Below, in pieces: positions 17,583 through 59,622 of a stretch of DNA of 64,000 nucleotides. The notes under the pieces were generated by a model. It made no database searches, was not told the origin of the DNA, and saw only the letters and a list, made by a program, of their open reading frames with translations. This DNA comes from Thiogranum sp. (GTDB lineage Bacteria > Pseudomonadota > Gammaproteobacteria > DSM-19610). A program made the translations under genes and the position numbers. How positions within the stretch are numbered: the stretch's first letter is position 1; every line of letters starts with the position of its first letter. The stretch covers positions 59,722-123,721 of the forward strand of contig JAGXGS010000021.1 of assembly GCA_024636585.1 (NCBI GenBank), written 5' to 3'.

Positions 17583-17602
17583 GCATTGAAAAATCTCAAT
17601 GC
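17583..17602 (+). promoter_or_regulatory. Crp/Fnr-type palindrome 1 (PLD gene)
   Basis: GCATTGA-AAAATC-TCAATGC with perfect arms; -10-like CAGTAT at 17622. Confidence 0.75.
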
Positions 17603-17648
17603 ACGCTGTCTTTGGCAGACACAGTATACGCAGGTGCCCGAATCCCCA

Positions 17649-19799
17649 ATGAAGCAGCAGCATATTCTGAAGCCAGGCAGGAACTGCTGGCGCATCCGGC
17701 GCGCCGAACGGGTGGCATTCCTGATCGATCCTGCGCCCTACTTCGAAAACCTTTACGATGCGCTCAACCAGGCGAGAGACCAGGTGCTGGTTCTGTCCTG
17801 GGACATTTACAGTCGCCTGCGCCTGATCGGGCTGCCGGACCGCGGGAACCGCAAGCGCCCCGATCTCACAAAGCTGCTGAACCTGCTGGTGGAGCGGCAT
17901 CCGGACCTGCAGATCTACCTGCTGAACTGGGACTATTCAGTCTTCCATACTCTGTCGCGCGAATGGCTGCCCGCCCACCGGCTCGACTGGTCGACGCATG
18001 CCCAGGTGCATTTCAAACTGGACCACCAGGTCCCGATCGGCTCCTCGCATCACCAGAAAGTTATCGTCATCGACGACGCCCTGGCTTTTGCAGGCGGCAT
18101 GGATCTCACCCGTGAACGCTGGGACACCAGCGAACACCGGCGTCGCGACGCGCGCCGCAAGGCCGTGGACGGCAGCCGCGGGCGATCCTATCATGACGTG
18201 CAGATGGCAGTATCCGGCCCGGTCGCCGGCGCGCTCGGCGATCTGGCCCGGGAGCGCTGGCGACGCGCCACTGGCCAGGTTCTTCCATGCTCCGCGCGCG
18301 CCGGTGCGGACGTCTGGCCAACTGGACTGACAGTTGACCTGAAAGATGTCGATGTGGCCATCGCACGCACCGAACCGATCAACGGCGACCACGGCGAAGT
18401 GCGGGAAATCGAAAATCTGTACCTGGATGCCATCGCGGCGGCGGATCGCTACATCTATATAGAGAACCAGTATTTCACTGCCCCGGCAGTGGCAAAAGCA
18501 CTTGCCGCCCGACTGGCGGATCCCGAAGGTCCGGACATCATCATCAATATGCCGTTGGCCACTGATGGCTGGTTCGCCAATCTGTCCATGGACGTCATGC
18601 GCGTCCGTCTGATCAAACAGCTGCGCGCGGCCGACCGACACCAGCGACTGGCGATCTACTATCCACACCTGCCGCAGCGACGCGCCGAACCCATCAACCT
18701 GCACAGCAAGTTGATGATCGTGGACGACCGGTTCCTGCGTATCGGTTCAGCCAATCTCAACAACCGCTCCTTCGGGCTCGACACCGAATGCGACCTCGCC
18801 ATCGAGGCCAGGGCTGGTCAGCAACGGGTGATCGATGCCATACGCGCATTGCGCAACCGGCTGCTCGGAGAACACCTGCAGGTAAGTTCACAAGCCATCG
18901 ATGCGGCCGAACAACGACATCAGTCGCTGCGACATGCCATCGAATCCTTGCGCAGCAGCGGGCGCAGCCTGTACGAACTGGAACCGGAGCTGGCGCACAT
19001 CCAGCACAGCCCCTTCAGTGATGCGGAACTGATCGATCCCGAGCGCCCGGTCAGTCCGGACACGCTGCTGGATCGTCTGGTAGCCGTCCAGGACACCCGG
19101 CCGGCCGGGCGCAGAGTGCTCGGCTGGCTGCTGGCAGTGTTCGCCACGCTGACGGCGGCAGCGGCAGCCTGGCATTTCAGCGATGTTTCGGAATGGGTGG
19201 ACGCCGCCCTGCTGAGCGAGCGCATGGCGCAAATACGTAGCGCGCCTGCAAGCCCGCTGATTTTTATCGCCGGTTTCGTAATCGCGGGGTTTCTACTGGT
19301 ACCGCTGACGGTCATGGTAATCGCCACAGCGGTGCTGTTCGGGCCGCTGTATGGCTTTGCCTACGCCTTCAGCGGCGCCCTGGCAAGCGCCGTTGCCGGC
19401 TACGCGGCAGGTGTCGCGATAGGCCGTCATGGTGTACGCAAGCTGGTCGGAAGGCGCGTCCAAATCGTGAGCCATCGACTGGGTGAACGCGGGCTACTGG
19501 CGGTCATGGCGGCGCGCGTAGTGCCGGTGGCGCCGTTCACTGTAATCAATCTGGTAGCCGGTGCTTCGTATATCCGGCTACGCGATTTCACCTGGGGCAC
19601 TGCTCTCGGAATAATCCCCGGCATGCTGGCGATTGTATTGCTGGTTGATCGCGCCACCGCCACCCTGCGCGATCCGGGCTGGACCAATATCCTGACCCTG
19701 ATCCTGGTGAGCCTGATAATCCTTGTCGCCGGTTACCTGCTCTCCCGGCAACTGCTGGCACACACCCCGGCACAGCCGCACAAGCCAAGGAACCTCTGA
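17649..19799 (+). CDS. Phospholipase D-family protein fused to a VTT/TVP38 (DedA-like) membrane domain
   Basis: Two HKD motifs (HHQKVIVIDD, LHSKLMIVDD); C-terminal TM region with RVVPVAPFTVIN. Confidence 0.88.
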   Translation: MKQQHILKPGRNCWRIRRAERVAFLIDPAPYFENLYDALNQARDQVLVLSWDIYSRLRLIGLPDRGNRKRPDLTKLLNLLVERHPDLQIYLLNWDYSVFHTLSREWLPAHRLDWSTHAQVHFKLDHQVPIGSSHHQKVIVIDDALAFAGGMDLTRERWDTSEHRRRDARRKAVDGSRGRSYHDVQMAVSGPVAGALGDLARERWRRATGQVLPCSARAGADVWPTGLTVDLKDVDVAIARTEPINGDHGEVREIENLYLDAIAAADRYIYIENQYFTAPAVAKALAARLADPEGPDIIINMPLATDGWFANLSMDVMRVRLIKQLRAADRHQRLAIYYPHLPQRRAEPINLHSKLMIVDDRFLRIGSANLNNRSFGLDTECDLAIEARAGQQRVIDAIRALRNRLLGEHLQVSSQAIDAAEQRHQSLRHAIESLRSSGRSLYELEPELAHIQHSPFSDAELIDPERPVSPDTLLDRLVAVQDTRPAGRRVLGWLLAVFATLTAAAAAWHFSDVSEWVDAALLSERMAQIRSAPASPLIFIAGFVIAGFLLVPLTVMVIATAVLFGPLYGFAYAFSGALASAVAGYAAGVAIGRHGVRKLVGRRVQIVSHRLGERGLLAVMAARVVPVAPFTVINLVAGASYIRLRDFTWGTALGIIPGMLAIVLLVDRATATLRDPGWTNILTLILVSLIILVAGYLLSRQLLAHTPAQPHKPRNL

Positions 19800-19805
19800 T
19801 TAATC

Positions 19806-19891
19806 CGTGACTGCGAGGCGCGTGCCGACGTGGCAATCTCCAGGCGCTTGATTCTGCTGTATGAGATTGCCACGCTTCGCTCGCAATGACG
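19806..19891. repeat. REP/BIME-like palindromic repeat (GTCATTGCGAG...GCAATC family), inverted pair
   Basis: CGTGACTGCGAGG...GTGGCAATCTC and GAGATTGCCACG...CTCGCAATGACG between convergent genes. Confidence 0.8.
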
Positions 19892-19918
19892 TGGAGATCT
19901 CAATTAATAAGAGGCGCC

Positions 19919-20653
19919 CTAGCTCTCGGCCTCACTGGCCAGCGCGCCCAGATCGCAACGGAAACATTCAGTATCGCCCTTGTCCAGCGGCACCAGGATC
20001 TCGAGTCGCTTGAAATCGGCGAGCGTCCGACTGATGCTCTCCGGCGTCACGCCCAGCACCTCGGACATTTCCTCGCCCGTCAGCAGCACCACTTCGCGCG
20101 GCCCGTGTTCGTCATCCATGTCGATAAGAAACTGCACCAGTCGCGCCACCCGGCCGCGTACCGCGCCGGTAGAGAAGTCAGTGATCCAGGCGTCGGCGGC
20201 ATTCAGGGAACGGTGCCACTGTTCCAGCAATTGGCTGTAGGCAAGCGGATCGTCATCTTTCAACGACAGCAACACGTTGAGCGGAATCTGGTATGCCTCG
20301 ACCTGGTCGACGGCGATGGCGGTGTGTCCGTGCGCGTCGCCGAGCAGCCCGTTGAGTCCGAGTACGCTGCCGCGTTTGTGCAGGCGCACAATGCGAGCCC
20401 GCCCATCGGGAAGATAACTGAGTAACTTTACCTTGCCGCGGCGTGGCACATACAGCACCTCGACATCAGCGCCCTCGTTGTATAGCGTTTCACCTGGCTG
20501 ATACACGCTCGACCGCGTCAGTACCGGCTCCTGGCGCAATAAATCAATGATCGTGGCGTCGACTCCGGCGCGGCGCAGTTCTTCCGCTGCCCGCAGTCCT
20601 GCGGATGGTTGACTACCGGCAAGTTCTTCTTGTCGCATCGATATCGTCTCCAC
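19919..20653 (-). CDS. Crp/Fnr-family transcriptional regulator
   Basis: cNMP-like domain (GETLYNEG, GKVKL...DGRARIV) plus HTH LTGEEMSEVLGVTPESISRTL. No N-terminal Cys cluster. Confidence 0.9.
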   Translation of the reverse strand: METISMRQEELAGSQPSAGLRAAEELRRAGVDATIIDLLRQEPVLTRSSVYQPGETLYNEGADVEVLYVPRRGKVKLLSYLPDGRARIVRLHKRGSVLGLNGLLGDAHGHTAIAVDQVEAYQIPLNVLLSLKDDDPLAYSQLLEQWHRSLNAADAWITDFSTGAVRGRVARLVQFLIDMDDEHGPREVVLLTGEEMSEVLGVTPESISRTLADFKRLEILVPLDKGDTECFRCDLGALASEAES

Positions 20654-20689
20654 TGTCGGTGCCTCAGCGCTTTTTTACCATACCAGAAC

Positions 20690-20709
20690 GCAATGAAATT
20701 TATCAATGC
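20690..20709 (+). promoter_or_regulatory. Crp/Fnr-type palindrome 2 (sodB / regulator divergent region)
   Basis: GCAATGA-AATTTA-TCAATGC; -10 TATACT at 20730. Confidence 0.75.
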
Positions 20710-20772
20710 TATGGCAGTGGGGCCTTTCTTATACTTGTGGTTTGACAAGATAACCGCAGCCTGGAGATACAC

Positions 20773-21399
20773 ATGAGCAAACCTCACGAATTACCACCGC
20801 TACCCTACGAACTGAACGCGCTGGAACCGGAAATCTCGCGCGAAACTCTGGAATACCACTATGGAAAACATCACGCCACTTACGTGAACAAGCTCAATAA
20901 ACTGATCGAGAATTCCGAGTATTCCGACATGCCACTGGTGGACATAGTCAGAACCGCCGACGGCGCCATATTCAACAATGCGGCGCAGGTCTGGAACCAT
21001 ACATTCTACTGGAGCTGCCTGAGCCCTGAGGGCGGCGGCGCACCGGAACATGAAGTGGCACAGGCCATCGAACGGGATTTCTCGTCATTCGAATCGTTTC
21101 GCGAGAAGTTCGACGAGGCCGCCACCGGACAGTTCGGGTCCGGCTGGGTATGGCTGGTACGTCAAGCAAACGGTCAGCTTGAAGTATTCAGCACCGGGAA
21201 TGCCGATACACCGATCCGCAACGGAGCGACACCGTTACTGACCTGCGACGTCTGGGAACACGCCTATTACCTCGACTATCGCAACAGCCGCCCTGATTAT
21301 CTGAAGGCATTCTGGAAACGTGTCAACTGGGAGTTCGTAAACCAGCAGTTTCTGATCGCCAGCGAGCAGCAACAGGCCGGTCACGCAGTCAACCAGTAG
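20773..21399 (+). CDS. sodB: Fe superoxide dismutase
   Basis: TLEYHYGKHHATYV, FNNAAQVWNHTFYW (Fe-type AAQ), DVWEHAYY. Confidence 0.95.
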   Translation: MSKPHELPPLPYELNALEPEISRETLEYHYGKHHATYVNKLNKLIENSEYSDMPLVDIVRTADGAIFNNAAQVWNHTFYWSCLSPEGGGAPEHEVAQAIERDFSSFESFREKFDEAATGQFGSGWVWLVRQANGQLEVFSTGNADTPIRNGATPLLTCDVWEHAYYLDYRNSRPDYLKAFWKRVNWEFVNQQFLIASEQQQAGHAVNQ

Positions 21400-21460: not shown

Positions 21461-22252
21461 TTACGGGTAAGAATGCCGCTGGTAGTGCCTGAACAACTGC
21501 ATGTCGTAATCGTGTTCGATAGCGCGCTGATCATAAGGCGGAGCACTGCACATTGCTTCGTGGGTCAGGTCGACGCGCAGGCTGCGCTGCACCCAGTCGA
21601 CCATCTCGATCCATCCGGGATTGATGACCAGCAGCCGGTCCCCGGCATCGATTTCCAGATAACGGATTGCCCAGTAACGTGCATCGATCACGATGTCGCG
21701 AATCCGGCCGACCTCAGCGTCCCGGGCCATCAGCGTGCAGCCAGTGATTTCCGCGGCACCATGCAGCCGGGTCTGATCAGAGCGCAATGCCGTGACTCTG
21801 GGCATCGCGCCTGCCAGTGTCCGGCGGTCGCTGGCGCGCGGGAGATCAGTCAGTGCGGGGTCCCAGTACCGCGGCCAGCCATAATACTGGTAGAGACTTT
21901 CCTCATCACCCTGCGAAATAGGTCGCCTGCTGCTGACCGGCGGACTGGCTTCGATCTGTCCACGTTCCAGCTCAATATGGATAAGGTTCTGGTGCTCGAA
22001 TATTTCACCGACGGCGACCGGCGGGATCAGCAGTTGTTTAGCGTCCGGAGAATGACCGCCAGCCATGGCCAGGTAACGCAGTCTCCAGGTCACATCATCG
22101 AAATACAGTTCCTCCAGCACACCGATTTCGCCGTCTACGGCATGCAGCACGCAATGCCGCAGCCGCGCTGCGGAATGCACATCATTGACGATGGCCGCGT
22201 TGTTCGTTTCGGGCAGGCCCCGCCCCTTTTTTCCGGATTTACTCTGCATCAT
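21461..22252 (-). CDS. Tandem PRC-barrel domain protein
   Basis: Two repeats of AxDGEIG/VG..LYFDD/IVID..W.IRYL. Confidence 0.8.
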   Translation of the reverse strand: MMQSKSGKKGRGLPETNNAAIVNDVHSAARLRHCVLHAVDGEIGVLEELYFDDVTWRLRYLAMAGGHSPDAKQLLIPPVAVGEIFEHQNLIHIELERGQIEASPPVSSRRPISQGDEESLYQYYGWPRYWDPALTDLPRASDRRTLAGAMPRVTALRSDQTRLHGAAEITGCTLMARDAEVGRIRDIVIDARYWAIRYLEIDAGDRLLVINPGWIEMVDWVQRSLRVDLTHEAMCSAPPYDQRAIEHDYDMQLFRHYQRHSYP

Positions 22253-22429: not shown

Positions 22430-22449
22430 GCATTGAAAAACCTCAATCA
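22430..22449 (-). promoter_or_regulatory. Crp/Fnr-type palindrome 3 (PRC-barrel gene)
   Basis: GCATTGA-AAAACC-TCAATCA; minus-strand -10 TAGGTT starting at 22410. Confidence 0.65.
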
Positions 22450-22456: not shown

Positions 22457-23722
22457 TCACCAGAGCAACAACCATCCCACCAGCAGGCCGGTCGCCGAAC
22501 TCACCAGTAATGGCACGCCGACACGCAGGCCGATGCGGGCGCCGCCGATGACGGCTGCCATACCGCCCTTGACGAGGCTGTTGACAGCGGCCGCGATCAG
22601 TATGCCGCTGACTGCGATGCGGATGCCCAGCTGATCTTCGCTCATACGCGCCAGCGATAACGTAATAGCATCGACATCAGCGACGCCCGAGGCCACCGCC
22701 AGCATCAGGACACCGGCTTCTCCCAGCCACGCCTGCAATGCCTTGCTCAGCAATAGCACCAGGGTCAGCAGCAGGCCGAAGGAAACTGCCGTCCGGAGCT
22801 CCAGTGGATTGTTGAGCGGCGCTTCAGTTTCTGTCTTGGCGGGTTTCGACGACCACCAGTAATACAGCGCCGGCGCATACACCAGCACCGTCATCACTGC
22901 TGCCGGCAGCAGCAATGGACGCAGCAACTGCATATTCAGAATGGCCGCGATCAGCAGCATGCGCGGAAACATGGTGCCGCAGGCAAACAGGATACCGATA
23001 CCCAGCAGCGGCACCTGCGCCGGGCGACGACGCGCGGCCCGCGCCAGGTGCAATGTCAGGGCGGTGGAGGACGCAAGCCCCCCGAACAGGCCGGTAAACA
23101 GCGTGCCCCGGCGCGCACCGGCAATCTTGATGGCGAAATAGCCGACAAAGGAAATCGATGCGATCAGCACTACCATCCACCAGATCTCATACGGATTGAG
23201 CGCCTCCCAGGGTCCATAACCCTGGCGCGGCAGGACCGGCAGCATGACTACCGAAATGAGCAACAGCTTGAGTCCGGCATGCAGTTCGTGACTTTCCAGG
23301 GCCTGGATCCAGCGGTGCAACAGCGGCTTGTAACCGAGCAACAGCGTAGTCACTACTGCCGCGGCACCCGCTACTGCGACTTCGCCCAGTCCGGCCAGGG
23401 CGCCGAAAATAAACGCCAGCAAGCTCGCCACCAGGCTGGTAATACCGACATCGGCCCCGCCTTCACGGCGATTCACCACGTACACCGTCGTCAGCGCGCC
23501 CGTCAGACCGATGAATATCAACCCCACCAGTAGCTCGCCGACCTGCTGGGCGAGCACCGCCGAACCGCCCCCGAGCAAGCCGATCAATCCATAGGTGCGC
23601 AGGCCGGCGACCCGCTGCCCTTCCTCGACGTCCCGGGTTTTCCAGCCTCGCTCCACACCCATCAACAGGCCGAGCAACAGCGCCGCCGCCAGATGGTAAT
23701 AGATCAGTTGTTCCTCGCTCAT
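22457..23722 (-). CDS. MgtC/SapB-family membrane protein with DUF4010
   Basis: GLLMGVERGW...AGLRTYGLIG; GGLASSTA; SGVADVDAI; ~12 TM segments. Confidence 0.87.
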   Translation of the reverse strand: MSEEQLIYYHLAAALLLGLLMGVERGWKTRDVEEGQRVAGLRTYGLIGLLGGGSAVLAQQVGELLVGLIFIGLTGALTTVYVVNRREGGADVGITSLVASLLAFIFGALAGLGEVAVAGAAAVVTTLLLGYKPLLHRWIQALESHELHAGLKLLLISVVMLPVLPRQGYGPWEALNPYEIWWMVVLIASISFVGYFAIKIAGARRGTLFTGLFGGLASSTALTLHLARAARRRPAQVPLLGIGILFACGTMFPRMLLIAAILNMQLLRPLLLPAAVMTVLVYAPALYYWWSSKPAKTETEAPLNNPLELRTAVSFGLLLTLVLLLSKALQAWLGEAGVLMLAVASGVADVDAITLSLARMSEDQLGIRIAVSGILIAAAVNSLVKGGMAAVIGGARIGLRVGVPLLVSSATGLLVGWLLLW

Positions 23723-23802: not shown

Positions 23803-23822
23803 GCATTGAAGGACATCAATGC
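23803..23822 (+). promoter_or_regulatory. Crp/Fnr-type palindrome 4 (fumC)
   Basis: GCATTGA-AGGACA-TCAATGC with perfect arms; -10-like GATTAT at 23842. Confidence 0.75.
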
Positions 23823-23877
23823 CGCACCTGTCGCCAGCATCGATTATCGTTGAATCCGTCAAGCCCCGGAGGCCCGC

Positions 23878-25263
23878 ATGTCCACAGAAATACCTTACCG
23901 CGTTGAACAGGACAGCATGGGTGAAGTCCGGGTTCCCGAAGGCGCCCTGTATGGCGCCCAGACCCAGCGCGCGGTGGACAATTTTCCGCTCAGCGGGCTG
24001 CGCATGCCACGCGCATTCATTCGCGCGCTGGGGCTGATCAAGGCCTGCGCCGCTGAAGCCAATACCGGTCTGGAACAGCTCGATCCGGCCATCGGGGCGG
24101 CTATCGGCGCAGCTGCGCAACAGGTAGCGCGTGGCGAGCATGATTCACATTTTCCGGTCGATGTTTTTCAGACCGGTTCCGGCACCAGCACCAACATGAA
24201 TGCCAACGAAGTGATTGCACGACTTGCTGCGCAGCAACTCGGCGCCGGCGTGCATCCCAATGATCAGGTCAATCGCGGCCAGAGCAGCAATGATGTGATC
24301 CCCACGGCGATTCACGTGGCGGCCCGCCTGGAATGCCATGAACAGCTGCTGCCGGCGCTGGCGCAGTTGATTGCCGCCATCGACGCACGCGCGGTGGAAC
24401 TCGACAATGTGGTAAAGACCGGCCGTACCCATCTCATGGACGCCATGCCGGTGACCCTCGGTCAGGAACTGGGCGGCTGGAGCGCCCAGCTCGGCGCCGC
24501 CAATGCCCGCCTGGTCGCGGTATTGCCACGCCTGGAACAACTGGCTCAGGGTGGCACCGCGGTGGGCACCGGCGTCAATGCGCACCCGAACTTTGCGGTG
24601 CAATTTGCCGCGGCTCTGCGCGCCGCTACCGGCCTGCCCTTTCAGCCCGCGCAGAATTTCTTTGCCGCCCTGTCGAGTCAGGACACGGCAGTGGAGCTCA
24701 GCGGCCAGTTGCGTGGCCTCGCCGTCACGCTGATGAAAATCGCCAACGATCTGCGCTGGATGAACAGCGGTCCGCTGCACGGCCTGGCTGAAATCCGGCT
24801 GCCCGCCCTGCAACCGGGAAGCAGTATCATGCCGGGCAAGGTGAATCCGGTGGTTCCGGAGGCGGTCGCAATGATCTGTGCACAGGTACTGGGCAACGAT
24901 GCCAGCATTGCGATAGCGGGTCAGTCCGGTAATTTTCAGCTCAACACCATGTTGCCGGTCATTGCCTACAACCTGTTGCAGAGCATCGAACTGCTGGCTA
25001 ACGCCAGCCGCCTGCTGGCCAGCCACGCGATTGCCGGCCTGCAGGTGAATGAAGCGCATCTTCAGGCGGCATTGGCCCGCAACCCGGTACTGGCGACGGC
25101 ATTGAACGAAGCACTTGGCTATGATCGAAGCGCTGCCATTGCCAAGCGCGCCGCCAGTGAAAATCGTCCGGTCCGGGAAATCGCCGCAGAGATGACTGAC
25201 TTGTCCGCAGAAGAACTCGACCGACTGCTCGACCCGGTGCGGCTGGCGCGACCGCACGACTGA
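23878..25263 (+). CDS. fumC: Class II fumarate hydratase
   Basis: RVEQDSMG, YGAQTQRA, FQTGSGTSTNMN, GRTHLMDA, GSSIMPGKVNP. Confidence 0.95.
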   Translation: MSTEIPYRVEQDSMGEVRVPEGALYGAQTQRAVDNFPLSGLRMPRAFIRALGLIKACAAEANTGLEQLDPAIGAAIGAAAQQVARGEHDSHFPVDVFQTGSGTSTNMNANEVIARLAAQQLGAGVHPNDQVNRGQSSNDVIPTAIHVAARLECHEQLLPALAQLIAAIDARAVELDNVVKTGRTHLMDAMPVTLGQELGGWSAQLGAANARLVAVLPRLEQLAQGGTAVGTGVNAHPNFAVQFAAALRAATGLPFQPAQNFFAALSSQDTAVELSGQLRGLAVTLMKIANDLRWMNSGPLHGLAEIRLPALQPGSSIMPGKVNPVVPEAVAMICAQVLGNDASIAIAGQSGNFQLNTMLPVIAYNLLQSIELLANASRLLASHAIAGLQVNEAHLQAALARNPVLATALNEALGYDRSAAIAKRAASENRPVREIAAEMTDLSAEELDRLLDPVRLARPHD

Positions 25264-25266: not shown

Positions 25267-26004
25267 TCACTGGCCGGATGCTACCGGCGTTTTTTCATCT
25301 TCCTCTGCGCTTTGCGGTGATGCCGTGCGCGCGAGATGCAGCTGACTGGTGTCGCGGGGAAACAGCAGCCAGGCCGGGAATCCGGACAGACGCAGGCCGA
25401 ACACTTCGCCAACTGCCCGCCGGTGCCCGATCGAGGCGACCTGGCCGCGCGGGCGGTAGCGAAACGGGCGGGTCGCCTGCCCGTCTATGGCGCGCACGAT
25501 GTTATCCGCCACCTGGCGCGCCTGCCGGACTGCAAATTGTGCTGTCGGCGGACTCAGCGCACCGTCGTGTGCATTGACTACCGCGGCACAATCACCAATC
25601 GCCCACAGGCCGGGCTGATCCGGCACCGACATATCCGGTGCCGTCGCAATCAGATCTTTTTGCTTGTTCACATCGAGCGTTTCAAGCAACGGGTTGGGAA
25701 CGGTTCCGATCGTACAGATCACGTTGGCGCCCAGAATCAGGTCCCCCGCATCGGTCGTTACGCCGGTGGCCGTCACCTCGCTGGCAAGCGCGTGCAGGTG
25801 AACTTCCATTCCGTGCCGGTCCATTGATTTCAGCGCAGCCTCTCCCAGTGAGGGCGCAAATTCGGAAACCAACAGCGGTGTATAGGTCATAAAGTTTTCC
25901 GCGCTGATCAGCACCACCTGCCAGTCCGATGGAATCCGCCGTTCAATGCGTCTCGCGACACCGGTTCCGGCAAACCCGCCGCCAATTACCACCACAGTGC
26001 CCAT
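25267..26004 (-). pseudogene. NDH-2-like (type II NADH:quinone oxidoreductase) gene with internal in-frame deletions
   Basis: First Rossmann fold (VVIGGGFAG) and WAIGDCA, PPTAQFAVRQA are present, but the second GGGxxGxE Rossmann motif is absent; only 245 aa. Confidence 0.7.
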
Positions 26005-26108: not shown

Positions 26109-26128
26109 GCATTGACAATTTTCAATGC
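26109..26128 (+). promoter_or_regulatory. Crp/Fnr-type palindrome 6 (diheme peroxidase operon)
   Basis: GCATTGA-CAATTT-TCAATGC with perfect arms; extended -10 TGtCATGCT at 26144-26152. Confidence 0.75.
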
Positions 26129-26188
26129 ATAAGCGTTTGCTGATGTCATGCTTTTACAGCCGATCACCCGTACGCTGGAGACGTTGAC

Positions 26189-27352
26189 ATGACTCGCCTG
26201 ACTAACTGCCGAAGCATTGCCTTCTCTGTGTTGATAGCGGGGCTGGGCATCCCGATGGCGATTGCCGCACCGCTGGGTCTGCCGCCGGTGCCGATTCCGG
26301 ATGACAATCCTCAGACAGAAGCCAAGATTGCGCTGGGAGACCGGCTGTTTCACGACCCGCGTTTCAGCGTCGATGGCACGATAAGCTGTGCCACCTGTCA
26401 TGCACCCGAGAAAGCCTTTACCGACCACCGGCGCCTGTCGGAAGGCCACAGCGGACTGCTCGGCACCCGTAACTCACCGACAGTAATCAACTCCGCCTAC
26501 ATGGAGGAACTGTTCTGGGACGGCCGCGAACCTGATCTCGAAGGGCAGTCGAAGCAGCCGCCTGTGAATCCGGTGGAAGGCGGTCTCGCGGATATCGGGG
26601 TACTGGTTGAAAAGATTCGTAGCGAACCCTCCTATGTCGAGGCGTTCAAGGCGGTATTCGGGGTCAAGGCACAGGATATCACCGCTGATCATTTTGCCGA
26701 CGCGATCGCCAGCTTCGAGCGCACCATCATCGCCGGCGATTCCCCTTTCGACCGTTATCAGTATGGCGGTGACGAGTCAGCCATGAGCGAAGCCGCCGTG
26801 CGCGGACTCGAGGTATTCCGTGGCCAGGGCCGCTGCGTATCCTGCCATCTCATTGAGCAGACCCAGGCGCTGTTTACCGACAACCGTTTCCATAATATCG
26901 GGGTCGGCTTCAAGACCATCCGTGGCCAGGAAGCGGAAATTGCCCGTAAGTTCCTCGAAGCCAAAAACGCCGGTGCGGATGTCGACAAAACGGTACTGGC
27001 AGACAAGGAGGCTTCCGAACTGGGCCGTTTCGCCGTGATCGAAGACATTAACAAGGTCGGGGCTTTCAAGACCTCAACCTTGCGCAACATCGCGCTGACT
27101 CCGCCCTACATGCACGACGGCAGCCTGGACACCCTTGAAGGCGTAATCGATTTCTACAACAACGGCGGACGTGAAAAAGAAACCGACCCCGTTACACCCT
27201 TCCTGAGCGGCGGCATTCGTCCGCTCAATCTTTCAGATGAGCAAAAGCAGGATCTGGTTGCATTCCTCGAGGCACTGACCAGCCCGGAGATCGCCAGCCA
27301 GGTGCCCAGCACTGAAATCATCACCGGGAACACAGGAGACCAGCAACCATGA
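26189..27352 (+). CDS. Diheme cytochrome c peroxidase/MauG-family protein
   Basis: Signal peptide; CATCH and CVSCH heme motifs; RNSPT; LFWDGR; FKTSTLRNIALTPPYMHDGS. Confidence 0.92.
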   Translation: MTRLTNCRSIAFSVLIAGLGIPMAIAAPLGLPPVPIPDDNPQTEAKIALGDRLFHDPRFSVDGTISCATCHAPEKAFTDHRRLSEGHSGLLGTRNSPTVINSAYMEELFWDGREPDLEGQSKQPPVNPVEGGLADIGVLVEKIRSEPSYVEAFKAVFGVKAQDITADHFADAIASFERTIIAGDSPFDRYQYGGDESAMSEAAVRGLEVFRGQGRCVSCHLIEQTQALFTDNRFHNIGVGFKTIRGQEAEIARKFLEAKNAGADVDKTVLADKEASELGRFAVIEDINKVGAFKTSTLRNIALTPPYMHDGSLDTLEGVIDFYNNGGREKETDPVTPFLSGGIRPLNLSDEQKQDLVAFLEALTSPEIASQVPSTEIITGNTGDQQP

Positions 27353-28422
27353 GTCAGATGAATCGCAGACGATTTCTCAGAACCGGAGGTGCGGTGCTAG
27401 CCGCCAGCAGTCTGCCGTTCAGCGTGGTCGAACTGGCTTTCGGCCAATCGGGTCCGGAGGATTTCAGTTTCGCGTTCATTTCAGATTCGCATATCACCCA
27501 TATCAAGGGTGACAAGTTCGTGCGCAACTGGGATCGCGGCATGATCCAGGCGGTCGCCGAGGCCAACCTGCTGTCGCCGCGTCCGGACTTCGTTTTCTAC
27601 GGTGGCGATATTGCCCAGCTCGGCACGCCGGAGGAAATCGATCACGGGCTGGAGATTCTCAGCGGATTGCGCGGAGACGTCCATCATGTGATGGGTGAAC
27701 ATGATTATTACCTCGACCTTGGCGAACACTGGCGCAAGCGCATCGGACCCGATCACTACAGCTTCGATCATAAAGGCGTGCACTTCGTAGTGCTCAACAG
27801 TATCCTCACTTATGACGAGTGGACGCACCGGAAATGGGATACACCGATGCAGCGCATGAAGGAAATGGCGCGCCTGGACAATCCTGACGGCTCACCCTTC
27901 ATGGTCGGCGACAGTCAGCGTGAATGGCTTCGTAAGGATCTCGCCAACATCAGCAAGGACACGCCGATCGTGGTGATGTCACACTCGCCGCTGCAGAAAA
28001 TTTACCGCGGCTGGAACTTCTGGACCGAAGATGCTGAACAGGTTCAGGAACTGCTGAAGCCATTCGACAAGGTGACAGTTCTATACGGTCACGTGCACCA
28101 GATTCAGTATAACCAGATCGGCAATATCAGCTTTCATGCAGCGATGGCGACTGCCTGGCCCTGGCCGTATCCGGAAACCTTTGTCCAGGAAGCCAGCTAC
28201 CTTCCCAAACTGACCGTGGAGATGAGCCGCGCCGATCCCTTCTTCGAGCGCGACGGCACCGGGTGGCAGTTTATCAACATGCACACGGGAGACGTGGATG
28301 TGCACTACGCCCTGCCCGACAATGAAAACCGCGTAGTTGCTTTCAACGAGCAACAGGACAAGCCGGTCGACTCGCTGTACCAGGATGAGTCGAAGCAGAT
28401 TCCGCCGCAGGATCACTACTGA
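27349..28422 (+). CDS. Tat-exported calcineurin-like metallophosphoesterase
   Basis: NRRRFL twin-arginine signal; DSH, GGD, GEHD, SH and GHVH metal motifs. Confidence 0.88.
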   Translation: MSQMNRRRFLRTGGAVLAASSLPFSVVELAFGQSGPEDFSFAFISDSHITHIKGDKFVRNWDRGMIQAVAEANLLSPRPDFVFYGGDIAQLGTPEEIDHGLEILSGLRGDVHHVMGEHDYYLDLGEHWRKRIGPDHYSFDHKGVHFVVLNSILTYDEWTHRKWDTPMQRMKEMARLDNPDGSPFMVGDSQREWLRKDLANISKDTPIVVMSHSPLQKIYRGWNFWTEDAEQVQELLKPFDKVTVLYGHVHQIQYNQIGNISFHAAMATAWPWPYPETFVQEASYLPKLTVEMSRADPFFERDGTGWQFINMHTGDVDVHYALPDNENRVVAFNEQQDKPVDSLYQDESKQIPPQDHY

Positions 28423-28442
28423 AATACCCAGAGGGAAAACTC

Positions 28443-28859
28443 ATGAACAGGATTCGTTATCCGTTGACGCAGGCCGCGCTCGCCGCATTATTGCTCACCA
28501 CGCAGTCGCCGGTACTACAGGCCGACCGCTTCACCGAGGCCGATCTGGAGCGTTGGACGCAGGAGTATATGGCGGTTGTAGACAAGGGCGAGAAACTGTT
28601 TCACGGAGGGCTGGAAAATGAGAACACGGTTTCCTGTGATCAGTGTCACCCCGACGCCGCTAATACCCATCCGGAGACCTATCCCAAATTTCAGCAACAG
28701 CTGGGAAAAGTTGCGGTACTGGGAGAAATGGTCAACTGGTGCATACAGAACCCACTGGAGTCAGACCCACTGACGCTGGATGACCCGCGCATGGTCGCCC
28801 TCCAGGCCTATATTCATGAGCAACGGCGTCTGGTACCTATGGCGCCCGGCAAACACTAG
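28443..28859 (+). CDS. Monoheme c-type cytochrome, SoxA/TsdA-like domain
   Basis: Signal peptide; CDQCH; ETYPKF...LGEMVNWCIQNPL with a candidate Cys axial ligand. Confidence 0.8.
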   Translation: MNRIRYPLTQAALAALLLTTQSPVLQADRFTEADLERWTQEYMAVVDKGEKLFHGGLENENTVSCDQCHPDAANTHPETYPKFQQQLGKVAVLGEMVNWCIQNPLESDPLTLDDPRMVALQAYIHEQRRLVPMAPGKH

Positions 28860-28880: not shown

Positions 28881-29102
28881 TTACATCCCGACCAGCTGGC
28901 TGCGCAGGCCCTCGCGCCGGGTATGTTCCACAAATTCCACTGCCTCGACGATGTTCGGATCATATTCGATTATCATCAGGTGCGGCCGTTCGTCGTGGTA
29001 CGCGGCGGCCATTACGCCATTCATGGCCAGCAAGGAATCACGCAGCTTTTCCCTCTGCTCGTGATCGGTATCTTCACTGATATGCAAGGTCACATCGGTC
29101 AT
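28881..29102 (-). CDS. Small HMA/ferredoxin-fold-like protein (no CxxC)
   Basis: 73 aa; GV..A......HLMIIEYDP pattern; AAGGAGG RBS. Confidence 0.7.
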   Translation of the reverse strand: MTDVTLHISEDTDHEQREKLRDSLLAMNGVMAAAYHDERPHLMIIEYDPNIVEAVEFVEHTRREGLRSQLVGM

Positions 29103-29165: not shown

Positions 29166-29185
29166 GCATTGCGAAAACGCAAATG
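29166..29185 (-). promoter_or_regulatory. Crp/Fnr-type palindrome 7 (HMA-like gene)
   Basis: GCATTGC-GAAAAC-GCAAATG; minus-strand -10 TACTTT starting at 29145. Confidence 0.55.
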
Positions 29186-29221: not shown

Positions 29222-29241
29222 CAATTGAAGTTTTTCAATGC
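29222..29241 (+). promoter_or_regulatory. Crp/Fnr-type palindrome 8 (cfa)
   Basis: CAATTGA-AGTTTT-TCAATGC; -10-like CAAAAT at 29260. Confidence 0.68.
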
Positions 29242-29332
29242 AGCGGCGCGAGCGGCGGGCAAAATGATGTGCATCATTCAGGGGATGAGCCACTGGATGA
29301 CCACCGAAAACCTGGAAAGGAGCCGCACGATT

Positions 29333-33230: not shown

Positions 33231-33250
33231 AGGTTGCGATTTTTCAATTC
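33231..33250 (+). promoter_or_regulatory. Crp/Fnr-type palindrome 9 (DUF2892 operon)
   Basis: AGGTTGC-GATTTT-TCAATTC; extended -10 TGtTACTCT at 33267-33275. Confidence 0.55.
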
Positions 33251-33307
33251 CAGGCCAACTGCGCATTGTTACTCTGATCACAGTCCACTGATAAAAAGGA
33301 CGCCAAC

Positions 33308-34127: not shown

Positions 34128-34147
34128 CCGTTGAGAAAACGCAATGC
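34128..34147 (+). promoter_or_regulatory. Crp/Fnr-type palindrome 10 (pfpI)
   Basis: CCGTTGA-GAAAAC-GCAATGC; -10 TAATCT at 34167. Confidence 0.62.
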
Positions 34148-34217
34148 AAGCCGTTCGGGGGCTCGTTAATCTGCTGCTTTCTACGTCGCCAACGAAATGC
34201 AAATGCAGGAGTGTGTC

Positions 34218-38853: not shown

Positions 38854-38856
38854 CGT

Positions 38857-54463: not shown

Positions 54464-55903
54464 TCAGCGATTGGCCAGATTCCTTTCTCCGGCATGGCCT
54501 GCGGCCGCCGCCATCTGGCTACTCTGAAGCCGGTACTTCTGGATGCGGTAACGCAGGGTTTCGCGAGTCGTGCCGAGCGCCTTGGCAGTCGCGGCGACGT
54601 TATAGCGGCTGCGTTCCAGCGCCGCCTGGATGATGTAGCTGTCCATCTCATCGAGCGCCATCGAACCATCGAGCGGGATGATCACCCGGTCGCCGTCCAC
54701 CTCGGCACGTCCGTCGCCCTGGCCGGTTTCGCGATCGAGCTGCAGCCAGCGTTCCTCGAGATGACTGCCCTGCGACAGCAGTACCGTGCGCTCGATCACA
54801 TTGCGCAACTCCCGGACATTGCCCGGCCAGTGATAACGCGACAGCTGTTGATAGATCCGGTCACTGATGTGACTGATGTGCTGATTGGCAATGGCATTGA
54901 ATTCTTCTACGAATACCGGCACCAGCTGCCGGAGATCTTCCATGCGCTCGCGTAGCGACGGCAACGGAATCTGGAATACATTCAGACGATGATAGAGATC
55001 GCCGCGAAAACGCTGGTCACGCACCTGGCGCTCGAGCTGCCGGTTGCTGGCGGCGATCACCTGGACATCCACGCTGAAGGTTTTTTCACCGCCTACCCGG
55101 CGCACCCGGCGATCTTCGATGGCGGTCAGCAGCTTGGCCTGCAGATCGGGGTCCAGCTCACCGATCTCATCGAGAAACAATGTGCCGCCATCGGCCTGTT
55201 CCAGATAGCCGCGGTGCCGGCCTCTGGCGCCAGTGAACGAACCTGACTCGTGACCGAACAGCTCCGAGTCGGCGAGGTCACGCGGCAGTGCAGCGCAATT
55301 TACATCGATGAACGGCCCGTCGCCGCGCGCGCCGCCGTGGTGCAGGATGCGCGCAATCAGACCTTTGCCGGTTCCGGTTTCACCGCTGATGATCAACCCG
55401 CTGATCGGCACTTCGATCAGACGTTGCACCAGGTCACGCACCTGCTGTGCCTGTGGACTGCCGCCGACGAAAGCTTCCGGTCCATAGCGCCTGACGCCCT
55501 CGGCGCATTGCCGGCGCAGTCGCCCCTGCGCAGTCGCACCGCGACGGGCACCGTTCAGCACCACACTCAGACGCTCCATGCTGCAGGGCTTTTCCAGAAA
55601 ATCGAGTGCCCCCAGTCTGAGCGCGCGCACCGAATCCGGCATATTGCCGTTGCCGGTCAGCAACACCCATTCGACGGACTTGCGCTGTTCCCGGACATCC
55701 TCCAGAAGATCCAGCGAATTGCCATCGGGCAGGGTCATGTCCGCCAGCACCACCAGCGGCTCGTTTGCCTCGTCACTCAGTATCCTGCGGGCCTCGGCAA
55801 GGGTGCTGGCCACCTGTACTTCCCATCCCTGAGGGGAAAGGTAGCGCGCCAGTTCGTTGGCCAGTCGTTCTTCGGCTTCGATAATCAGCAATGAATCAGC
55901 CAC
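54464..55903 (-). CDS. NtrC-family sigma54-dependent response regulator (REC-AAA+-Fis HTH)
   Basis: GETGTGK; [13 protein letters not shown]; GTLFLDEIG; [10 protein letters not shown]; AAKAL-like [21 protein letters not shown]. Confidence 0.92.
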
Positions 55904-57745: not shown

Positions 57746-58405
57746 TTACGTTCGGAAAAACTCGTACCCCGGGCTCATGTCCGGTTCGATCCCCAACTCA
57801 TGGCACAATGCAGCCTTGCGGCACAGGTCGGCGATATTGGCAGCCTGCATTTTTTCCATGACATGTGCGCGGTGATTTTCAACAGTGCGCGGACTGATAT
57901 TCAGCACCCGCGCGATTTCCTTGTTACTCAAGCCGTCGGTGGCGAGCTGCATGACTTCGCACTCGCGCGGCGTGAGCTGTTGACAGCGAGCCCGGATCTG
58001 GCTTTCCGCCATTTCCCGTTCCCGCTGTCGCCGGTCTTCGGCGACAGCTTTCTCGATCCGGGAAATCAGGGTTGCGGTCGACAGTGGCTTTTCCAGAAAA
58101 TCGACCGCCCCCTGCTGCACTGCTTTCACACTAGCCGGAATACTGCCGGCGCCGGAGATGAAGATCACAGGGATCTGGCAACCCTTCTTCCTGAGTGCCT
58201 CCTGCAGACTCAGGCCATCCATGCCCGGCATGCGCAGATCCAGAATCAGGCAACCGGGCCGGTCTCCGTCACTGCAGGTCTCGAAGAAGGATTCAGCCGT
58301 GGCATAGGCCTGGACCCTGTAGCCTGCCAGGTCGAGCGCCATCGACAGCGACTCGCGTACTGCACTGTCGTCGTCCACCAGAAAGATTGTTGGCTTCTCA
58401 TCCAT
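57746..58405 (-). CDS. FixJ-like REC-LuxR response regulator
   Basis: LVDDD; LDLRMPGMDG; LTPRE...NKEIA...ISPRTVENHR. Confidence 0.9.
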   Translation of the reverse strand: MDEKPTIFLVDDDSAVRESLSMALDLAGYRVQAYATAESFFETCSDGDRPGCLILDLRMPGMDGLSLQEALRKKGCQIPVIFISGAGSIPASVKAVQQGAVDFLEKPLSTATLISRIEKAVAEDRRQREREMAESQIRARCQQLTPRECEVMQLATDGLSNKEIARVLNISPRTVENHRAHVMEKMQAANIADLCRKAALCHELGIEPDMSPGYEFFRT

Positions 58406-58433: not shown

Positions 58434-58742
58434 TTAATGTGTGGCATAGGTCAGACAGTTGATAACCTGATCGCCACTGATGCCGACAGAGATTTCGTCG
58501 GCGCCACACTCAAGCTCGACATTGTGAACGCAATCACTCACTTTGCACGCACCAACGCCGGCGATCAGCTTACCGTCGACGTGCATGGAACCGCTGTTCT
58601 CGAGAAAAGTGTCGCATCCCGGGATACTACTGTGACCAATGGTAATCGCTTTGGCGTGACACCTTTCATTGATGTTGTATGCACATTCCTTTATCGAACA
58701 CCCGTTGACTGCGGGCATCTCTACGGTCATCTTCATCGTCAT
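58434..58742 (-). CDS. Cys-rich DUF1540 repeat protein
   Basis: C.IKECAYN...CHAKAI.I and C.VSDCVHN...CGADEI.V; GGAGG RBS. Confidence 0.85.
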   Translation of the reverse strand: MTMKMTVEMPAVNGCSIKECAYNINERCHAKAITIGHSSIPGCDTFLENSGSMHVDGKLIAGVGACKVSDCVHNVELECGADEISVGISGDQVINCLTYATH

Positions 58743-58806
58743 TACCTCCGTGTCCTGCGGTACTGATTTTCCAGGCCAGTATCGTATAAAACTGTTCCGC
58801 CTGATG

Positions 58807-58826
58807 TCATTGCGATATCACAATGA
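58807..58826 (-). promoter_or_regulatory. Crp/Fnr-type palindrome 11 (DUF1540)
   Basis: TCATTGC-GATATC-ACAATGA; minus-strand -10 TACGAT starting at 58786. Confidence 0.6.
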
Positions 58827-58841
58827 ATCGCCACCTGTTGC

Positions 58842-59390
58842 CTAGATCGCGTCGACTGCGATCACTCCGCAGGCTACACGCTCACCGCCGCCACCCAGCG
58901 GCTTTGGGCTGTCGGAATAGTTATCTCCGCTCTCATGCACAACCACCGAGCGAGCGACCAGATCCGGAACCTCCAGGCGCGGCGCGAACATTGCCATAGT
59001 TGCCGTGCCATCCGGTCCAACCAGCAAGGCCGGCATGTCACCGAGATGCCCATCGCCTACCGGACCTGCATGCTTCCCGGTGTTTTCCGCGTCATAATGG
59101 CCGCCCGCCGCGCCGCCGGGAACCGTCTTGCCATTTTTGCTTTTTGCTCCACAGTCAGGATTCTCGTGCACATGGAAGCCATGCGCTCCGGGGCTGAGGC
59201 CCTTGAGGTCAGGGATGATCAGCAGCCCCAGTTCACTGCTGTCACGGAAGGTGACGGAGCCAATAGATTCGCCGACGCCCTCCTTTGTGGCTTTCTTTAT
59301 CTCCACCTTCAGATCCGCGGCCTGAGCGCCTGTCAGTACACCGCCCATCAGCAATGCGCCTGATACTATGGATGCCATTTTGAAATTCAT
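58842..59390 (-). CDS. sodC: Periplasmic Cu/Zn superoxide dismutase
   Basis: Signal peptide; HGFHVHENPDC; AGGHYD; HLGDMP; VVHESGDNY; GERVACG. Confidence 0.94.
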   Translation of the reverse strand: MNFKMASIVSGALLMGGVLTGAQAADLKVEIKKATKEGVGESIGSVTFRDSSELGLLIIPDLKGLSPGAHGFHVHENPDCGAKSKNGKTVPGGAAGGHYDAENTGKHAGPVGDGHLGDMPALLVGPDGTATMAMFAPRLEVPDLVARSVVVHESGDNYSDSPKPLGGGGERVACGVIAVDAI

Positions 59391-59503
59391 AGAGTCCCTC
59401 CTTGCCGGCGATAGCCTCGGCGTCAGCGCAATTGAACGAGAAGTTGACGGCCCCACTGAGGCCGGCACACCAGCATTAACCATAAGGCCCGCATTACCCG
59501 CCG

Positions 59504-59555
59504 TCACTGACAATTCGCAATTCTCGGGCGCCTCGCGATTGAGAATTATCATTGC
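59504..59555. promoter_or_regulatory. Crp/Fnr-type palindromes 12 and 13 (sodC leftward, ahpC rightward)
   Basis: TCACTGA-CAATTC-GCAATTC (59504-59523; minus -10 TATGGT starting at 59484) and CGATTGA-GAATTA-TCATTGC (59536-59555; plus -10 TAATTT at 59575). Confidence 0.58.
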
Positions 59556-59622
59556 CAGTCCGGCGCATCTTTTCTAATTTCAGCGCAACCGAATGGACAG
59601 TCACACCTGAACGGAGCTCACG

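What the first reader, a model, noticed from the sequence alone, without database searches (positions are those of the whole stretch)
17583..59580. Hidden 13-promoter regulon: FNR-variant box GCATTGA-N6-TCAATGC at class II position
Seen: sites at 17583, 20690, 22430, 23803, 26061, 26109, 29166, 29222, 33231, 34128, 58807, 59504 and 59536, all intergenic, three with perfect 7-bp arms. In every case an xAxxxT -10 hexamer begins 28.5-30.5 bp from the site centre towards the gene, matching the -41.5 geometry of class II Crp/Fnr activation. Divergent gene pairs often have one site each. The box keeps TTG(A/C)-N6-(T/G)CAA but lacks the FNR T5/A and adds GCA/TGC flanks. Targets: PLD-VTT, sodB, PRC-barrel, fumC, ndh-like, diheme peroxidase operon, HMA-like, cfa-asmA, DUF2892, pfpI-BON, DUF1540, sodC and ahpC-cydAB. 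Inference: the Crp/Fnr protein at 19919-20653 (helix ESISR), divergent from sodB, activates an oxidative-stress regulon normally run by OxyR/SoxRS/Fur/RpoS.
Basis: partly seen in the sequence, partly recalled or inferred. Interest (0 to 1): 0.8.

Follow-up and report, generated by a model that had tools for sequence, protein, structure and literature searches.

The report
Cysteine-less Fnr-like general stress regulon
A 20-base palindrome sits at one fixed distance in front of dozens of stress-survival genes in a Thiogranum-related bacterium and its kin, and is likely the docking site of an unstudied Crp/Fnr-type activator that would switch these genes on together, a job usually given to stress sigma factors.

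Summary
All 13 sites are present, between genes, each with a -10 hexamer starting 28.5-30.5 bp from the centre. The regulon is larger than the window: 46 strong genomic sites, 44 intergenic, before glycogen, trehalose, LigD, BON, encapsulin and protease genes as well as sodB, sodC, ahpC and cydAB. It is a general-stress regulon, not only an oxidative one. The core equals the published FixK2 box; the GCA flanks and A/T-rich centre are extra. The box tracks a cysteine-less Crp/Fnr clade: mean 10.7 sites in 11 relatives that have it, 0.8 in 33 that do not, while canonical FNR is in 41 of 45. The clade lies apart from FNR and nests among Cys-bearing relatives. The genome has two paralogs, so the window's protein cannot be named as sole binder. 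RpoS, Fur and an OxyR-like gene are present, so nothing is replaced. Binding, start sites and signal are untested. The scan noted what is probably this box on other DNA before (e1-753209).

The parts
19919..20638 (-). Cysteine-less Crp/Fnr-family regulator, 239 aa, recognition helix TPESISR; one of two candidate binders in the genome
   Evidence: Pfam cNMP_binding and HTH_Crp_2 over cut-off; below all named NCBIfam cut-offs; CRP/FNR fold; tree
17583..17602 (.). Box, perfect arms; -10 CAGTAT at 17622-17627 facing the PLD-VTT gene (17712-19799 by my call, start uncertain)
   Evidence: a box with a -10 precedes the same gene in G033 and G001
20690..20709 (.). Box between the regulator and sodB; -10 TATACT at 20730-20735 facing sodB (20773-21399)
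   Evidence: identical in L001; box before sodB in 6 other loci
20677..20706 (-). Predicted sigma70 promoter of the regulator: TTGATA (20706-20701, inside the box), 18 bp, TATGGT (20682-20677); binding would repress it
   Evidence: read from the sequence; inference, no start site mapped
22430..22449 (.). Box; -10 TAGGTT (22410-22405) facing the PRC-barrel gene (21461-22252, -)
23803..23822 (.). Box, perfect arms, with a -10 on both sides: GATTAT (23842-23847) facing the fumC/aspA-family gene (23878-25263, +) and CAATAT (23783-23778) facing mgtC/DUF4010 (22457-23722, -)
   Evidence: falls in an alignment gap against L001
26061..26080 (.). Box; -10 TAGCAT (26042-26037) facing the pyridine nucleotide-disulphide oxidoreductase gene (25267-26004, -)
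26109..26128 (.). Box, perfect arms; -10 CATGCT (26147-26152) facing the di-haem MauG/MbnH-type peroxidase, metallophosphoesterase and cytochrome c genes (26189-28859, +)
29166..29185 (.). Weakest box (TTGCG-N4-CGCAA form); -10 TACTTT (29145-29140) facing a 73-aa gene without Pfam hit (28881-29102, -)
29222..29241 (.). Box; -10 CAAAAT (29260-29265) facing cfa and asmA (to 33223, +)
33231..33250 (.). Box; -10 TACTCT (33270-33275) facing the YgaP-like (DUF2892) gene (33308-33526) and a 177-aa gene
   Evidence: box before the same gene in 5 other loci
34128..34147 (.). Box; -10 TAATCT (34167-34172) facing pfpI and a two-BON gene (34218-35512, +)
   Evidence: box before pfpI in G019
58807..58826 (.). 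Box; -10 TACGAT (58786-58781) facing DUF1540 (58434-58736, -), which is followed closely by a FixJ-like response regulator gene
59504..59523 (.). Box; -10 TATGGT (59484-59479) facing sodC (58842-59390, -)
59536..59555 (.). Box; -10 TAATTT (59575-59580) facing ahpC-cydA-cydB (59623-62671, +)
   Evidence: box before ahpC in L121

Best explanation
The palindrome GCATTGAnWW-WWnTCAATGC lies about 29.5 bp upstream of a -10 element at dozens of stress-gene promoters and is likely the operator of a cysteine-less Crp/Fnr clade, two members of which are encoded in this genome, that would activate a general stress-survival regulon as class II activators. Shown: the box, its spacing to the -10 element, its targets, its co-occurrence with the clade and its clustering around the clade's genes, and the loss of all four FNR-type cysteines and of the cAMP-pocket residues. 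Inferred: a dimer binds with its E-S-x-S-R helix centred near -41.5, in place of a -35 element, and recruits RNA polymerase, more likely with sigma70 than RpoS; one box between divergent genes can serve both. Inferred: the window's paralog represses its own promoter while activating sodB from the same box, so its level is held steady and its activity is gated after translation. Most likely gate (a guess, about 40%): an oxidant or metal/redox cue read by the His87/His105 pocket or Cys228, turning on protection when this probably microaerophilic cell meets oxygen, drying or starvation.
For: Spacer-specific and intergenic enrichment. -10 hexamer in 38 of 49 gene-facing directions against 4 of 18 directions with no gene start, background 12% (p about 1e-4); in other genomes' sites 53 of 173 directions have it at 29.5, 17 at 28.5, 23 at 30.5 and 3-18 at all other offsets. 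Family: mean 10.7 sites in 11 genomes with the clade, 0.8 (maximum 3) in 33 without. Class sample of 400: 3 of the 5 other genomes with the clade are among the 4 highest counts. 33 of the 34 closest metagenome loci carry a box; 74 hits in 457 kb around 72 distinct cysteine-less loci (two from this genome) against 1 with the reversed matrix. The same targets recur with box and -10 in other lineages: sodB, YgaP-like, PLD-VTT, pfpI, otsB, glgC, glgX, BON, ahpC, encapsulin cargo. sodB is the commonest neighbour, 22 of 86 loci. A box lies 23-61 bp before the start in 6 of 7 loci of the window's subclade. Five of six boxes keep 66 of 70 arm bases in the close relative L001, against 61% for other intergenic DNA, gaps counted. 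No CxxC in 120 of 120 homologues; E200, S203 and R204 invariant; His87 117 of 120, His105 118 of 120, Cys228 106 of 120. No RpoS-type C at -13: 18 of 57.
Against: No binding, start site or expression data. Some clade-bearing genomes have few sites (G024 1, G023 2, G005 2; G225 3, G282 3), and only 12 of the 46 more distant metagenome loci (L081-L126, duplicates included) have a box. G339, G289, G440, G064 and G328 reach 10-13 loose matches without the clade (base composition not checked). Targets travel with the regulator (LigD in 6 of 45 and pfpI in 5 of 45 genomes, all clade-bearing), so co-occurrence is partly that of an accessory gene set, and kin are not independent. Cys-bearing sister proteins also have the box nearby (9 hits in 22 loci). 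10 of the 44 strong intergenic sites have no -10 facing a called gene. A full TAnnnT for the self-promoter is at the same place in only 3 of 7 subclade loci, one base off in a fourth. The foreign matrix was trained on sites chosen with the first matrix, so searches are independent for the -10 spacing but not for the motif.
Confidence: 0.8

Rival explanations
1. Same protein clade and box, but the regulon answers to low oxygen or energy limitation, as a dormancy programme like Burkholderia lxa, FixK2 or mycobacterial DosR, with activity set by transcription from an upstream two-component system. This differs from the best explanation in the signal only.
For: The core equals the FixK2 box. Targets include cydAB, phosphoketolase-acetate kinase, otsB with GH65, a CBS protein, an M50-CBS protease and P-type ATPases, like DosR members otsB1, ctpF and Rv2625c (PMC7753917 passages). 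A FixJ-like regulator is in the window (209 vs 255 bits) and near 8 of 86 clade loci. Cys-bearing relatives have boxes before ccoG, cydA and a multihaem cytochrome.
Against: No box within 300 bp upstream of either USP gene or either cbb3-type ccoN gene of this genome, the usual hypoxia targets. sodB, sodC, ahpC, encapsulin, fpg and LigD protect against oxidative and drying damage. The B. cenocepacia Anr-like protein groups with FNR, not with this clade.
Confidence: 0.3
2. Canonical FNR (or the DNR-like protein) binds these sites, and the GCA flanks and A/T centre only tune affinity; the cysteine-less proteins are passengers of the stress islands.
For: Shared TTGA-N6-TCAA core and E-x-x-S-R helix; FNR, FixK and DNR motifs are nearly identical in alphaproteobacteria (PMC2908626 passages). 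Two canonical TTGAT-N4-ATCAA sites (before hemN and a 741-aa 4Fe-4S protein gene) also score on the matrix.
Against: FNR is over the cut-off in 41 of 45 family genomes, most with 0-3 boxes. T at the FNR position in only 18 of 64 half-sites. Boxes crowd around the clade's own genes in unrelated metagenome contigs and sit at its own 5' end. FNR was not found in G000 itself (83% complete; probably an assembly gap, as it is split at contig ends in G028).
Confidence: 0.07
3. Only the C51 paralog activates the regulon; the window's protein is a local modulator of sodB or a competitor at the same box.
For: G037 (27 sites) and G018 (7) have the C51-type paralog and no member of the window's subclade; G001 has only the window type and 4 sites. 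A box with a -10 points towards a small ORF and then the C51 paralog, which would fit a cascade.
Against: G033 has 25 sites with the window type and another member but no C51 type; the window's subclade and its sister group have the densest local boxes.
Confidence: 0.2
4. The sites are chance matches or a dispersed repeat without a protein partner.
For: A/T-rich palindromes arise more often in intergenic DNA.
Against: Spacer-specific, fixed -10 spacing, unrelated flanks, conserved before the same genes in other lineages.
Confidence: 0.01

Closest known systems
FixK2 of Bradyrhizobium diazoefficiens (FixK subfamily)
   Same: Core box TTG(A/C)-N6-(T/G)CAA, a start site 40.5 bp from the box centre at nosR, negative autoregulation, a regulatory cysteine near the DNA-binding domain (passages of PMC9104804 and PMC5582078); FixK proteins lack the Fe-S cysteines (PMC2908626 passages).
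   Different: Sequence far from FixK (43.6 vs 300 bits; 4i2o E 1.8e-4). It derives from a separate CxxC-bearing clade, not from the FNR group (no FixK row in that tree). Box extended by GCA flanks and an A/T centre, with a TTGCG alternative half-site (21 of 21 TTGC followed by G in other genomes). No box before ccoN or USP genes.
FNR/ANR of gammaproteobacteria
   Same: E-x-x-S-R helix, TTGA-N6-TCAA core, class II spacing.
   Different: All four cysteine ligands absent; 44.6 vs 228 bits; T5 not required; targets are protection genes, not anaerobic respiration.
SdrP (TTHA1359) of Thermus thermophilus
   Same: A Crp/Fnr class II activator of oxidative-stress genes (PMC8465061 passages): the closest functional precedent.
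   Different: CRP-like site AWTGTRA-N6-TYACAWT and RETVTK helix; no orthology (best NCBIfam hit LdrP 49 vs 300 bits).
Burkholderia cenocepacia lxa locus
   Same: A clustered accessory stress locus with a TGA-N6-TCA motif at 17 intergenic points (PMC3721108 passages).
   Different: Candidate regulators are Anr-related; a B. cenocepacia Anr-like protein groups with FNR; USP genes are not boxed here.
RpoS, SigB and EcfG general stress regulons (recalled, no call)
   Same: Target types: BON/OsmY, PfpI, glycogen and trehalose enzymes, cfa, CbpA-CbpM, WrbA-like flavodoxin, LigD, SodC.
   Different: Driven here by an activator box; rpoS is present, has no box and the -10 elements show no C(-13) enrichment.

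Membership tests
Crp/Fnr superfamily | N-terminal cNMP-binding-type barrel plus C-terminal winged HTH | tested here: met
   PF00027 58.9 vs 27.5 and PF13545 39.3 vs 27 bits; model pLDDT 85.7, Foldseek TM about 0.76 to GlxR, CRP and FNR
Crp/Fnr superfamily | Binds a TnGnn-N6 type inverted repeat as a dimer | not testable with these tools
   Only association shown
Class II Crp/Fnr promoter | Site centred about 41.5 bp upstream of the start site | tested here: inconclusive
   -10 hexamer peaks at 29.5 bp from the centre, as this geometry needs; no start site mapped; no RNA holder listed
FNR (canonical) | Four cysteine ligands for a [4Fe-4S] cluster | tested here: not met
   No CxxC in 120 of 120 homologues; the C122-equivalent column is Tyr in the window protein and Cys in 4 of 4 FNRs and 16 of 16 CxxC relatives
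FNR (canonical) | Score over the NF008365 cut-off | tested here: not met
   44.6 vs 228 bits
FNR (canonical) | E-x-x-S-R recognition helix | tested here: met
   E200, S203, R204 in 120 of 120
FNR (canonical) | TTGAT-N4-ATCAA box | tested here: not met
   T in 18 of 64 half-sites
FixK / FixK2 | No Fe-S cysteines, FNR-type helix | tested here: met
FixK / FixK2 | Box TTG(A/C)-N6-(T/G)CAA | tested here: met
FixK / FixK2 | Member of the FNR-FixK sequence group | tested here: not met
   43.6 vs 300 bits to NF050806; separate clade from FNR with support 96 (FastTree, no FixK row)
FixK / FixK2 | Induced by FixLJ | tested here: inconclusive
   FixJ-like gene in the window below cut-off; no FixL partner or FixJ site tested
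FixK / FixK2 | Controls ccoNOQP and USP genes | tested here: not met
   No box within 300 bp upstream of 2 ccoN and 2 USP genes
CRP (cAMP receptor protein) | cAMP pocket G71-E72...R82 and R-E-x-x-R helix (residue roles recalled) | tested here: not met
   Aligned to the genome's own CRP the positions are G94-L95 and H105; helix TPESISR
DNR | Haem binding and NO sensing | not tested
   A separate DNR-like protein is encoded at G000:C11:47585-48304 and falls outside the clade
RpoS regulon | C at -13 next to the -10 element (recalled) | tested here: not met
   18 of 57 TA-type elements, about background

The most novel reading that the evidence does not exclude
An undescribed Crp/Fnr lineage lost its Fe-S sensor independently of FixK, gained a histidine-lined sensing pocket and became the master activator of a portable general stress and desiccation-survival regulon of 40 or more promoters in sulfur-oxidising gammaproteobacteria, working beside sigma54 and without a stress sigma factor.
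Probability: 0.45. Interest if true: 0.72.

Novelty: new variant of a known kind. Interest (0 to 1): 0.52.

Why it matters
General stress responses are normally assigned to alternative sigma factors. Here a stress gene set of that type carries an activator box in a lineage that still has RpoS. The finding names a box, two candidate proteins and about 44 promoters, so the question can be tested at once with purified protein or a reporter. It also gives a second case of an Fnr-like sensor losing its cluster and changing its regulon, and the box can be used to assign unknown small genes of uncultured sediment bacteria to a stress response. The mechanism of activation itself is textbook, which limits the surprise.

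Tried and rejected
Replacement of RpoS/OxyR/Fur: rejected, since rpoS is over cut-off in G000 and 40 of 45 family genomes, fur is present and a contig-truncated LysR gene matches OxyR best; soxR not found (genome 83% complete). RpoS dependence of the box promoters: no signature. cAMP sensing through the nearby CHASE2 cyclase: pocket residues absent. Profile search of cluster representatives: queue full three times, not done. The Atlas search with homologue P0003 gave only generic Crp/Fnr clusters. Cluster look-ups gave no organism names. The first tree did not finish its careful search; the quick tree was read, and one search is FastTree without bootstrap or a one-clade test. A first sigma54 pattern had the wrong spacing and found nothing; corrected. 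Six of the seven Crp/Fnr proteins of G000 were read in full; the one at C77:5769-5969 was missed by my gene caller and not read. Literature: searches returned 0 papers, 42 and 48 one unrelated paper each, 39 and 58 listings without a description of this clade or box; the library lacks most subscription journals, the written form 'CRP/FNR' could not be searched, and no supplements (for example RegPrecise-type motif tables) were read, so 'not described' rests on these searches only.

Full report
Setting. The window is G000:C45:59722-123721 of a 2.6-Mb, 83% complete genome. The nearest named relative of the window's regulator is 89% identical and comes from a Thiogranum sp. record. That the organism is a sulfur-oxidising, probably microaerophilic gammaproteobacterium is inferred from this kinship and from recall.

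Observation. Genome-wide, the consensus with a 6-base spacer has 16 matches with at most one mismatch; spacers 3-5 and 7-10 give 0-2 each. A matrix trained on 12 sites outside the window gives 33 hits at 18 bits or more against 0-3 for ten column-permuted matrices; 32 of 33 are intergenic. Twelve of the 13 sites are in the window's top 13; 29166 is 26th. A matrix from other genomes' half-sites gives 46 hits at 16 bits or more, 44 intergenic, 34 of these with a -10 facing a called gene, and lists all 13 window sites. The half-site is (G)(C)ATTGA-N-A-W; TTGCG is an alternative, with G following TTGC in 21 of 21 foreign half-sites and in 5 of the 6 TTGC half-sites among the ten commonest forms printed for G000.

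Promoter geometry. An xAxxxT hexamer starts 28.5-30.5 bp from the centre in 38 of 49 gene-facing directions, against 4 of 18 directions with no gene start and a 12% background. That set includes the 13 window sites, so it is partly circular. The independent check is in other genomes: 53 of 173 directions have the hexamer at 29.5 bp, 17 and 23 at the two neighbouring offsets and 3-18 elsewhere. This is the spacing expected when a Crp/Fnr dimer sits at about -41.5 (established knowledge; a FixK2 box is 40.5 bp from a mapped start at nosR, PMC5582078 passages). There is no RpoS-type C at -13 (18 of 57).

Targets. In the window: PLD-VTT, sodB, PRC-barrel, mgtC/DUF4010, fumC-like, an oxidoreductase, a di-haem peroxidase operon, cfa-asmA, YgaP-like, pfpI-BON, DUF1540, sodC and ahpC-cydAB. 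Elsewhere, mostly on C32, C42, C49, C51 and C57: glgB-glgE-treS-malQ, glgX, otsB with GH65, a five-BON protein, degP-cbpA-cbpM, dodecin, M50-CBS protease, transaldolase, phosphoketolase-acetate kinase, fructose-bisphosphate aldolase and trkH-trkA have a box with a -10 facing them; encapsulin with its ferritin-like cargo, DsrC-like genes, a CBS-LigD cluster, glgC, a xanthine-dehydrogenase-type trimer and a KefC-type antiporter lie next to or downstream of boxes, some without the -10 match. Pfam was run on 98 of the 120 genes I listed around the sites. This is a general-stress, storage and repair set with an oxidative core. Neither USP gene, neither ccoN gene, nor rpoS has a box.

Which protein. 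G000 has seven Crp/Fnr genes; six were read: CRP, a DNR-like protein, two of the RR(E/V)GVT type, the window's protein and a paralog on C51 with helix TQESVSR. Among 44 family genomes, 11 have a cysteine-less member and average 10.7 matches to CATTGANWWWWNTCAATG with one mismatch; 33 lack it and average 0.8, maximum 3. Canonical FNR is over cut-off in 41 of 45, so it does not explain the difference. In a class-wide sample of 400, five other genomes carry the clade; they have 18, 16, 12, 3 and 3 matches, three being among the four highest counts. In metagenome contigs 33 of the 34 closest loci have a box, but only 12 of the next 46. The same genes are boxed in other lineages. Against a clean assignment: the targets travel with the regulator, several clade-bearing genomes have few boxes, and G037 has 27 sites without the window's subclade while G033 has 25 without the C51 type. 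The box belongs to the clade; which paralog acts in G000 is open.

The protein. It has the CRP/FNR fold and an invariant E-S-x-S-R helix; an ExSR motif is described as the FNR-type DNA-binding motif (PMC3590769 passages). It scores far below the FNR, FixK, FnrL, CRP and LdrP cut-offs. In a 55-row FastTree the 28 cysteine-less rows form one branch (support 95) inside a 45-row clade (96) whose other members have CxxC and the fourth FNR cysteine; canonical FNRs and a B. cenocepacia Anr-like protein lie outside. The Cys-bearing relatives, one of them in Azospirillum brasilense next to ccoG, often have the box too, before ccoG, cydA, a multihaem cytochrome and SLAC1-type channels; the Azospirillum locus itself has none. 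So the box is probably ancestral to the wider clade, and the cysteine-less branch kept it while losing the cluster, in parallel with FixK (inference). His87 (117 of 120; Leu, Ile or other in most CxxC rows), His105 (118 of 120, at the position of the cAMP-binding Arg of CRP), Asp149, Trp151 and Cys228 are conserved. I could not measure distances in the model.

Self-regulation. The 20690 box has a -10 for sodB at class II distance and none towards the regulator at that distance. Instead TTGATA inside the box, 18 bp and TATGGT form a plausible sigma70 promoter for the regulator. A box lies 23-61 bp before the start in 6 of 7 subclade loci, and in G033 it has no class II -10 on either side. A full TAnnnT at this place is seen in 3 of 7, one base off in a fourth. 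Self-repression is therefore likely but unproven; FixK2 is also auto-repressed (PMC9104804 passages).

Comparison. The core equals the FixK2 consensus TTG(A/C)-N6-(T/G)CAA, and the lxa motif shares TGA-N6-TCA (PMC3721108 passages). SdrP is a Crp/Fnr class II activator of oxidative-stress genes with a CRP-like site (PMC8465061 passages). Some targets resemble DosR members (PMC7753917 passages). The system works like FixK2 or SdrP but fails the membership tests for FNR, FixK and CRP. Of the papers I saw passages only (plus the abstract of PMC3590769); no supplements. Searches found no description of this clade or of the extended box, within the limits given under Tried and rejected.

Earlier notes. 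The scan recorded an 18-bp palindrome with an uncharacterised Crp/Fnr activator of oxidative and general stress genes in sulfur- and methane-oxidising gammaproteobacteria (e1-753209), probably this box, though its letters were hidden; a protein look-alike in e1-1238085; and a parallel case with a 16-bp box in Rhodoferax (e1-5451207). These are not independent support.

Verdict. A real, genome-wide and conserved regulon. A new variant of the class II Crp/Fnr activator theme: known core box and mechanism, undescribed protein clade, general-stress output. Confidence in clade-box pairing 0.8; signal uncertain. Interest 0.52.

Noticed in passing
window 35000-57000: The box-free middle of the stress island (csbD, yegS, PRC-barrel and small membrane genes) has sigma54-type GG-N10-GC elements before 8 of 20 genes with upstream space, against 27 of 1473 elsewhere in the genome. 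Two NtrC-like activators lie at 35524-36669 and 54464-55903. The island looks split between a Crp/Fnr half and a sigma54 half.
   Followed up: partly
window 37291-40308: KaiC-like ATPase followed by a hybrid histidine kinase, inside the sigma54 half.
   Followed up: no
window 12971-17262: Two divergent PAS-HisKA_2/HWE kinases and an ANTAR response regulator just left of the first box; kinases of this type feed the alphaproteobacterial general stress response (recalled). A possible input, untested.
   Followed up: no
window 57746-58405: FixJ-like response regulator directly downstream of the boxed DUF1540 gene, so possibly part of the regulon; similar regulators lie near 8 of 86 clade loci.
   Followed up: partly
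window 63328 onward (L015:49-4050): CHASE2 adenylate/guanylate cyclase next to a FecR-domain gene; no box.
   Followed up: no
G000:C51:16887-17470 (L004:8887-9470): Two boxes; the second has TAGTCT at 29.5 bp facing a 126-aa ORF without Pfam hit, upstream of the second paralog: a possible cascade.
   Followed up: partly
G000:C63:42362 and G000:C61:13075: Canonical TTGAT-N4-ATCAA boxes before hemN and a 741-aa 4Fe-4S protein gene; 5 intergenic canonical boxes in all, although FNR was not found in this assembly.
   Followed up: partly
L056:7750-8037 and 14 other loci: A 95-aa helical protein without Pfam hit is a frequent boxed neighbour of the sister subclade (15 of 86 loci).
   Followed up: partly
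G000:C51:37032-39301 (L005): Two DsrC-like genes, an encapsulin and a ferritin-like cargo gene cluster among boxes: a possible link between sulfur carriers and iron storage under stress.
   Followed up: no
window 3653-4615: IS1595-family transposase within the chemotaxis region.
   Followed up: no
window 9779-12766: Protoglobin-PAS-GGDEF-EAL protein, a likely oxygen-sensing c-di-GMP enzyme; no box.
   Followed up: no
G037:C19:99887-100417: The pfpI homologue of G037 has an internal TAA.
   Followed up: no
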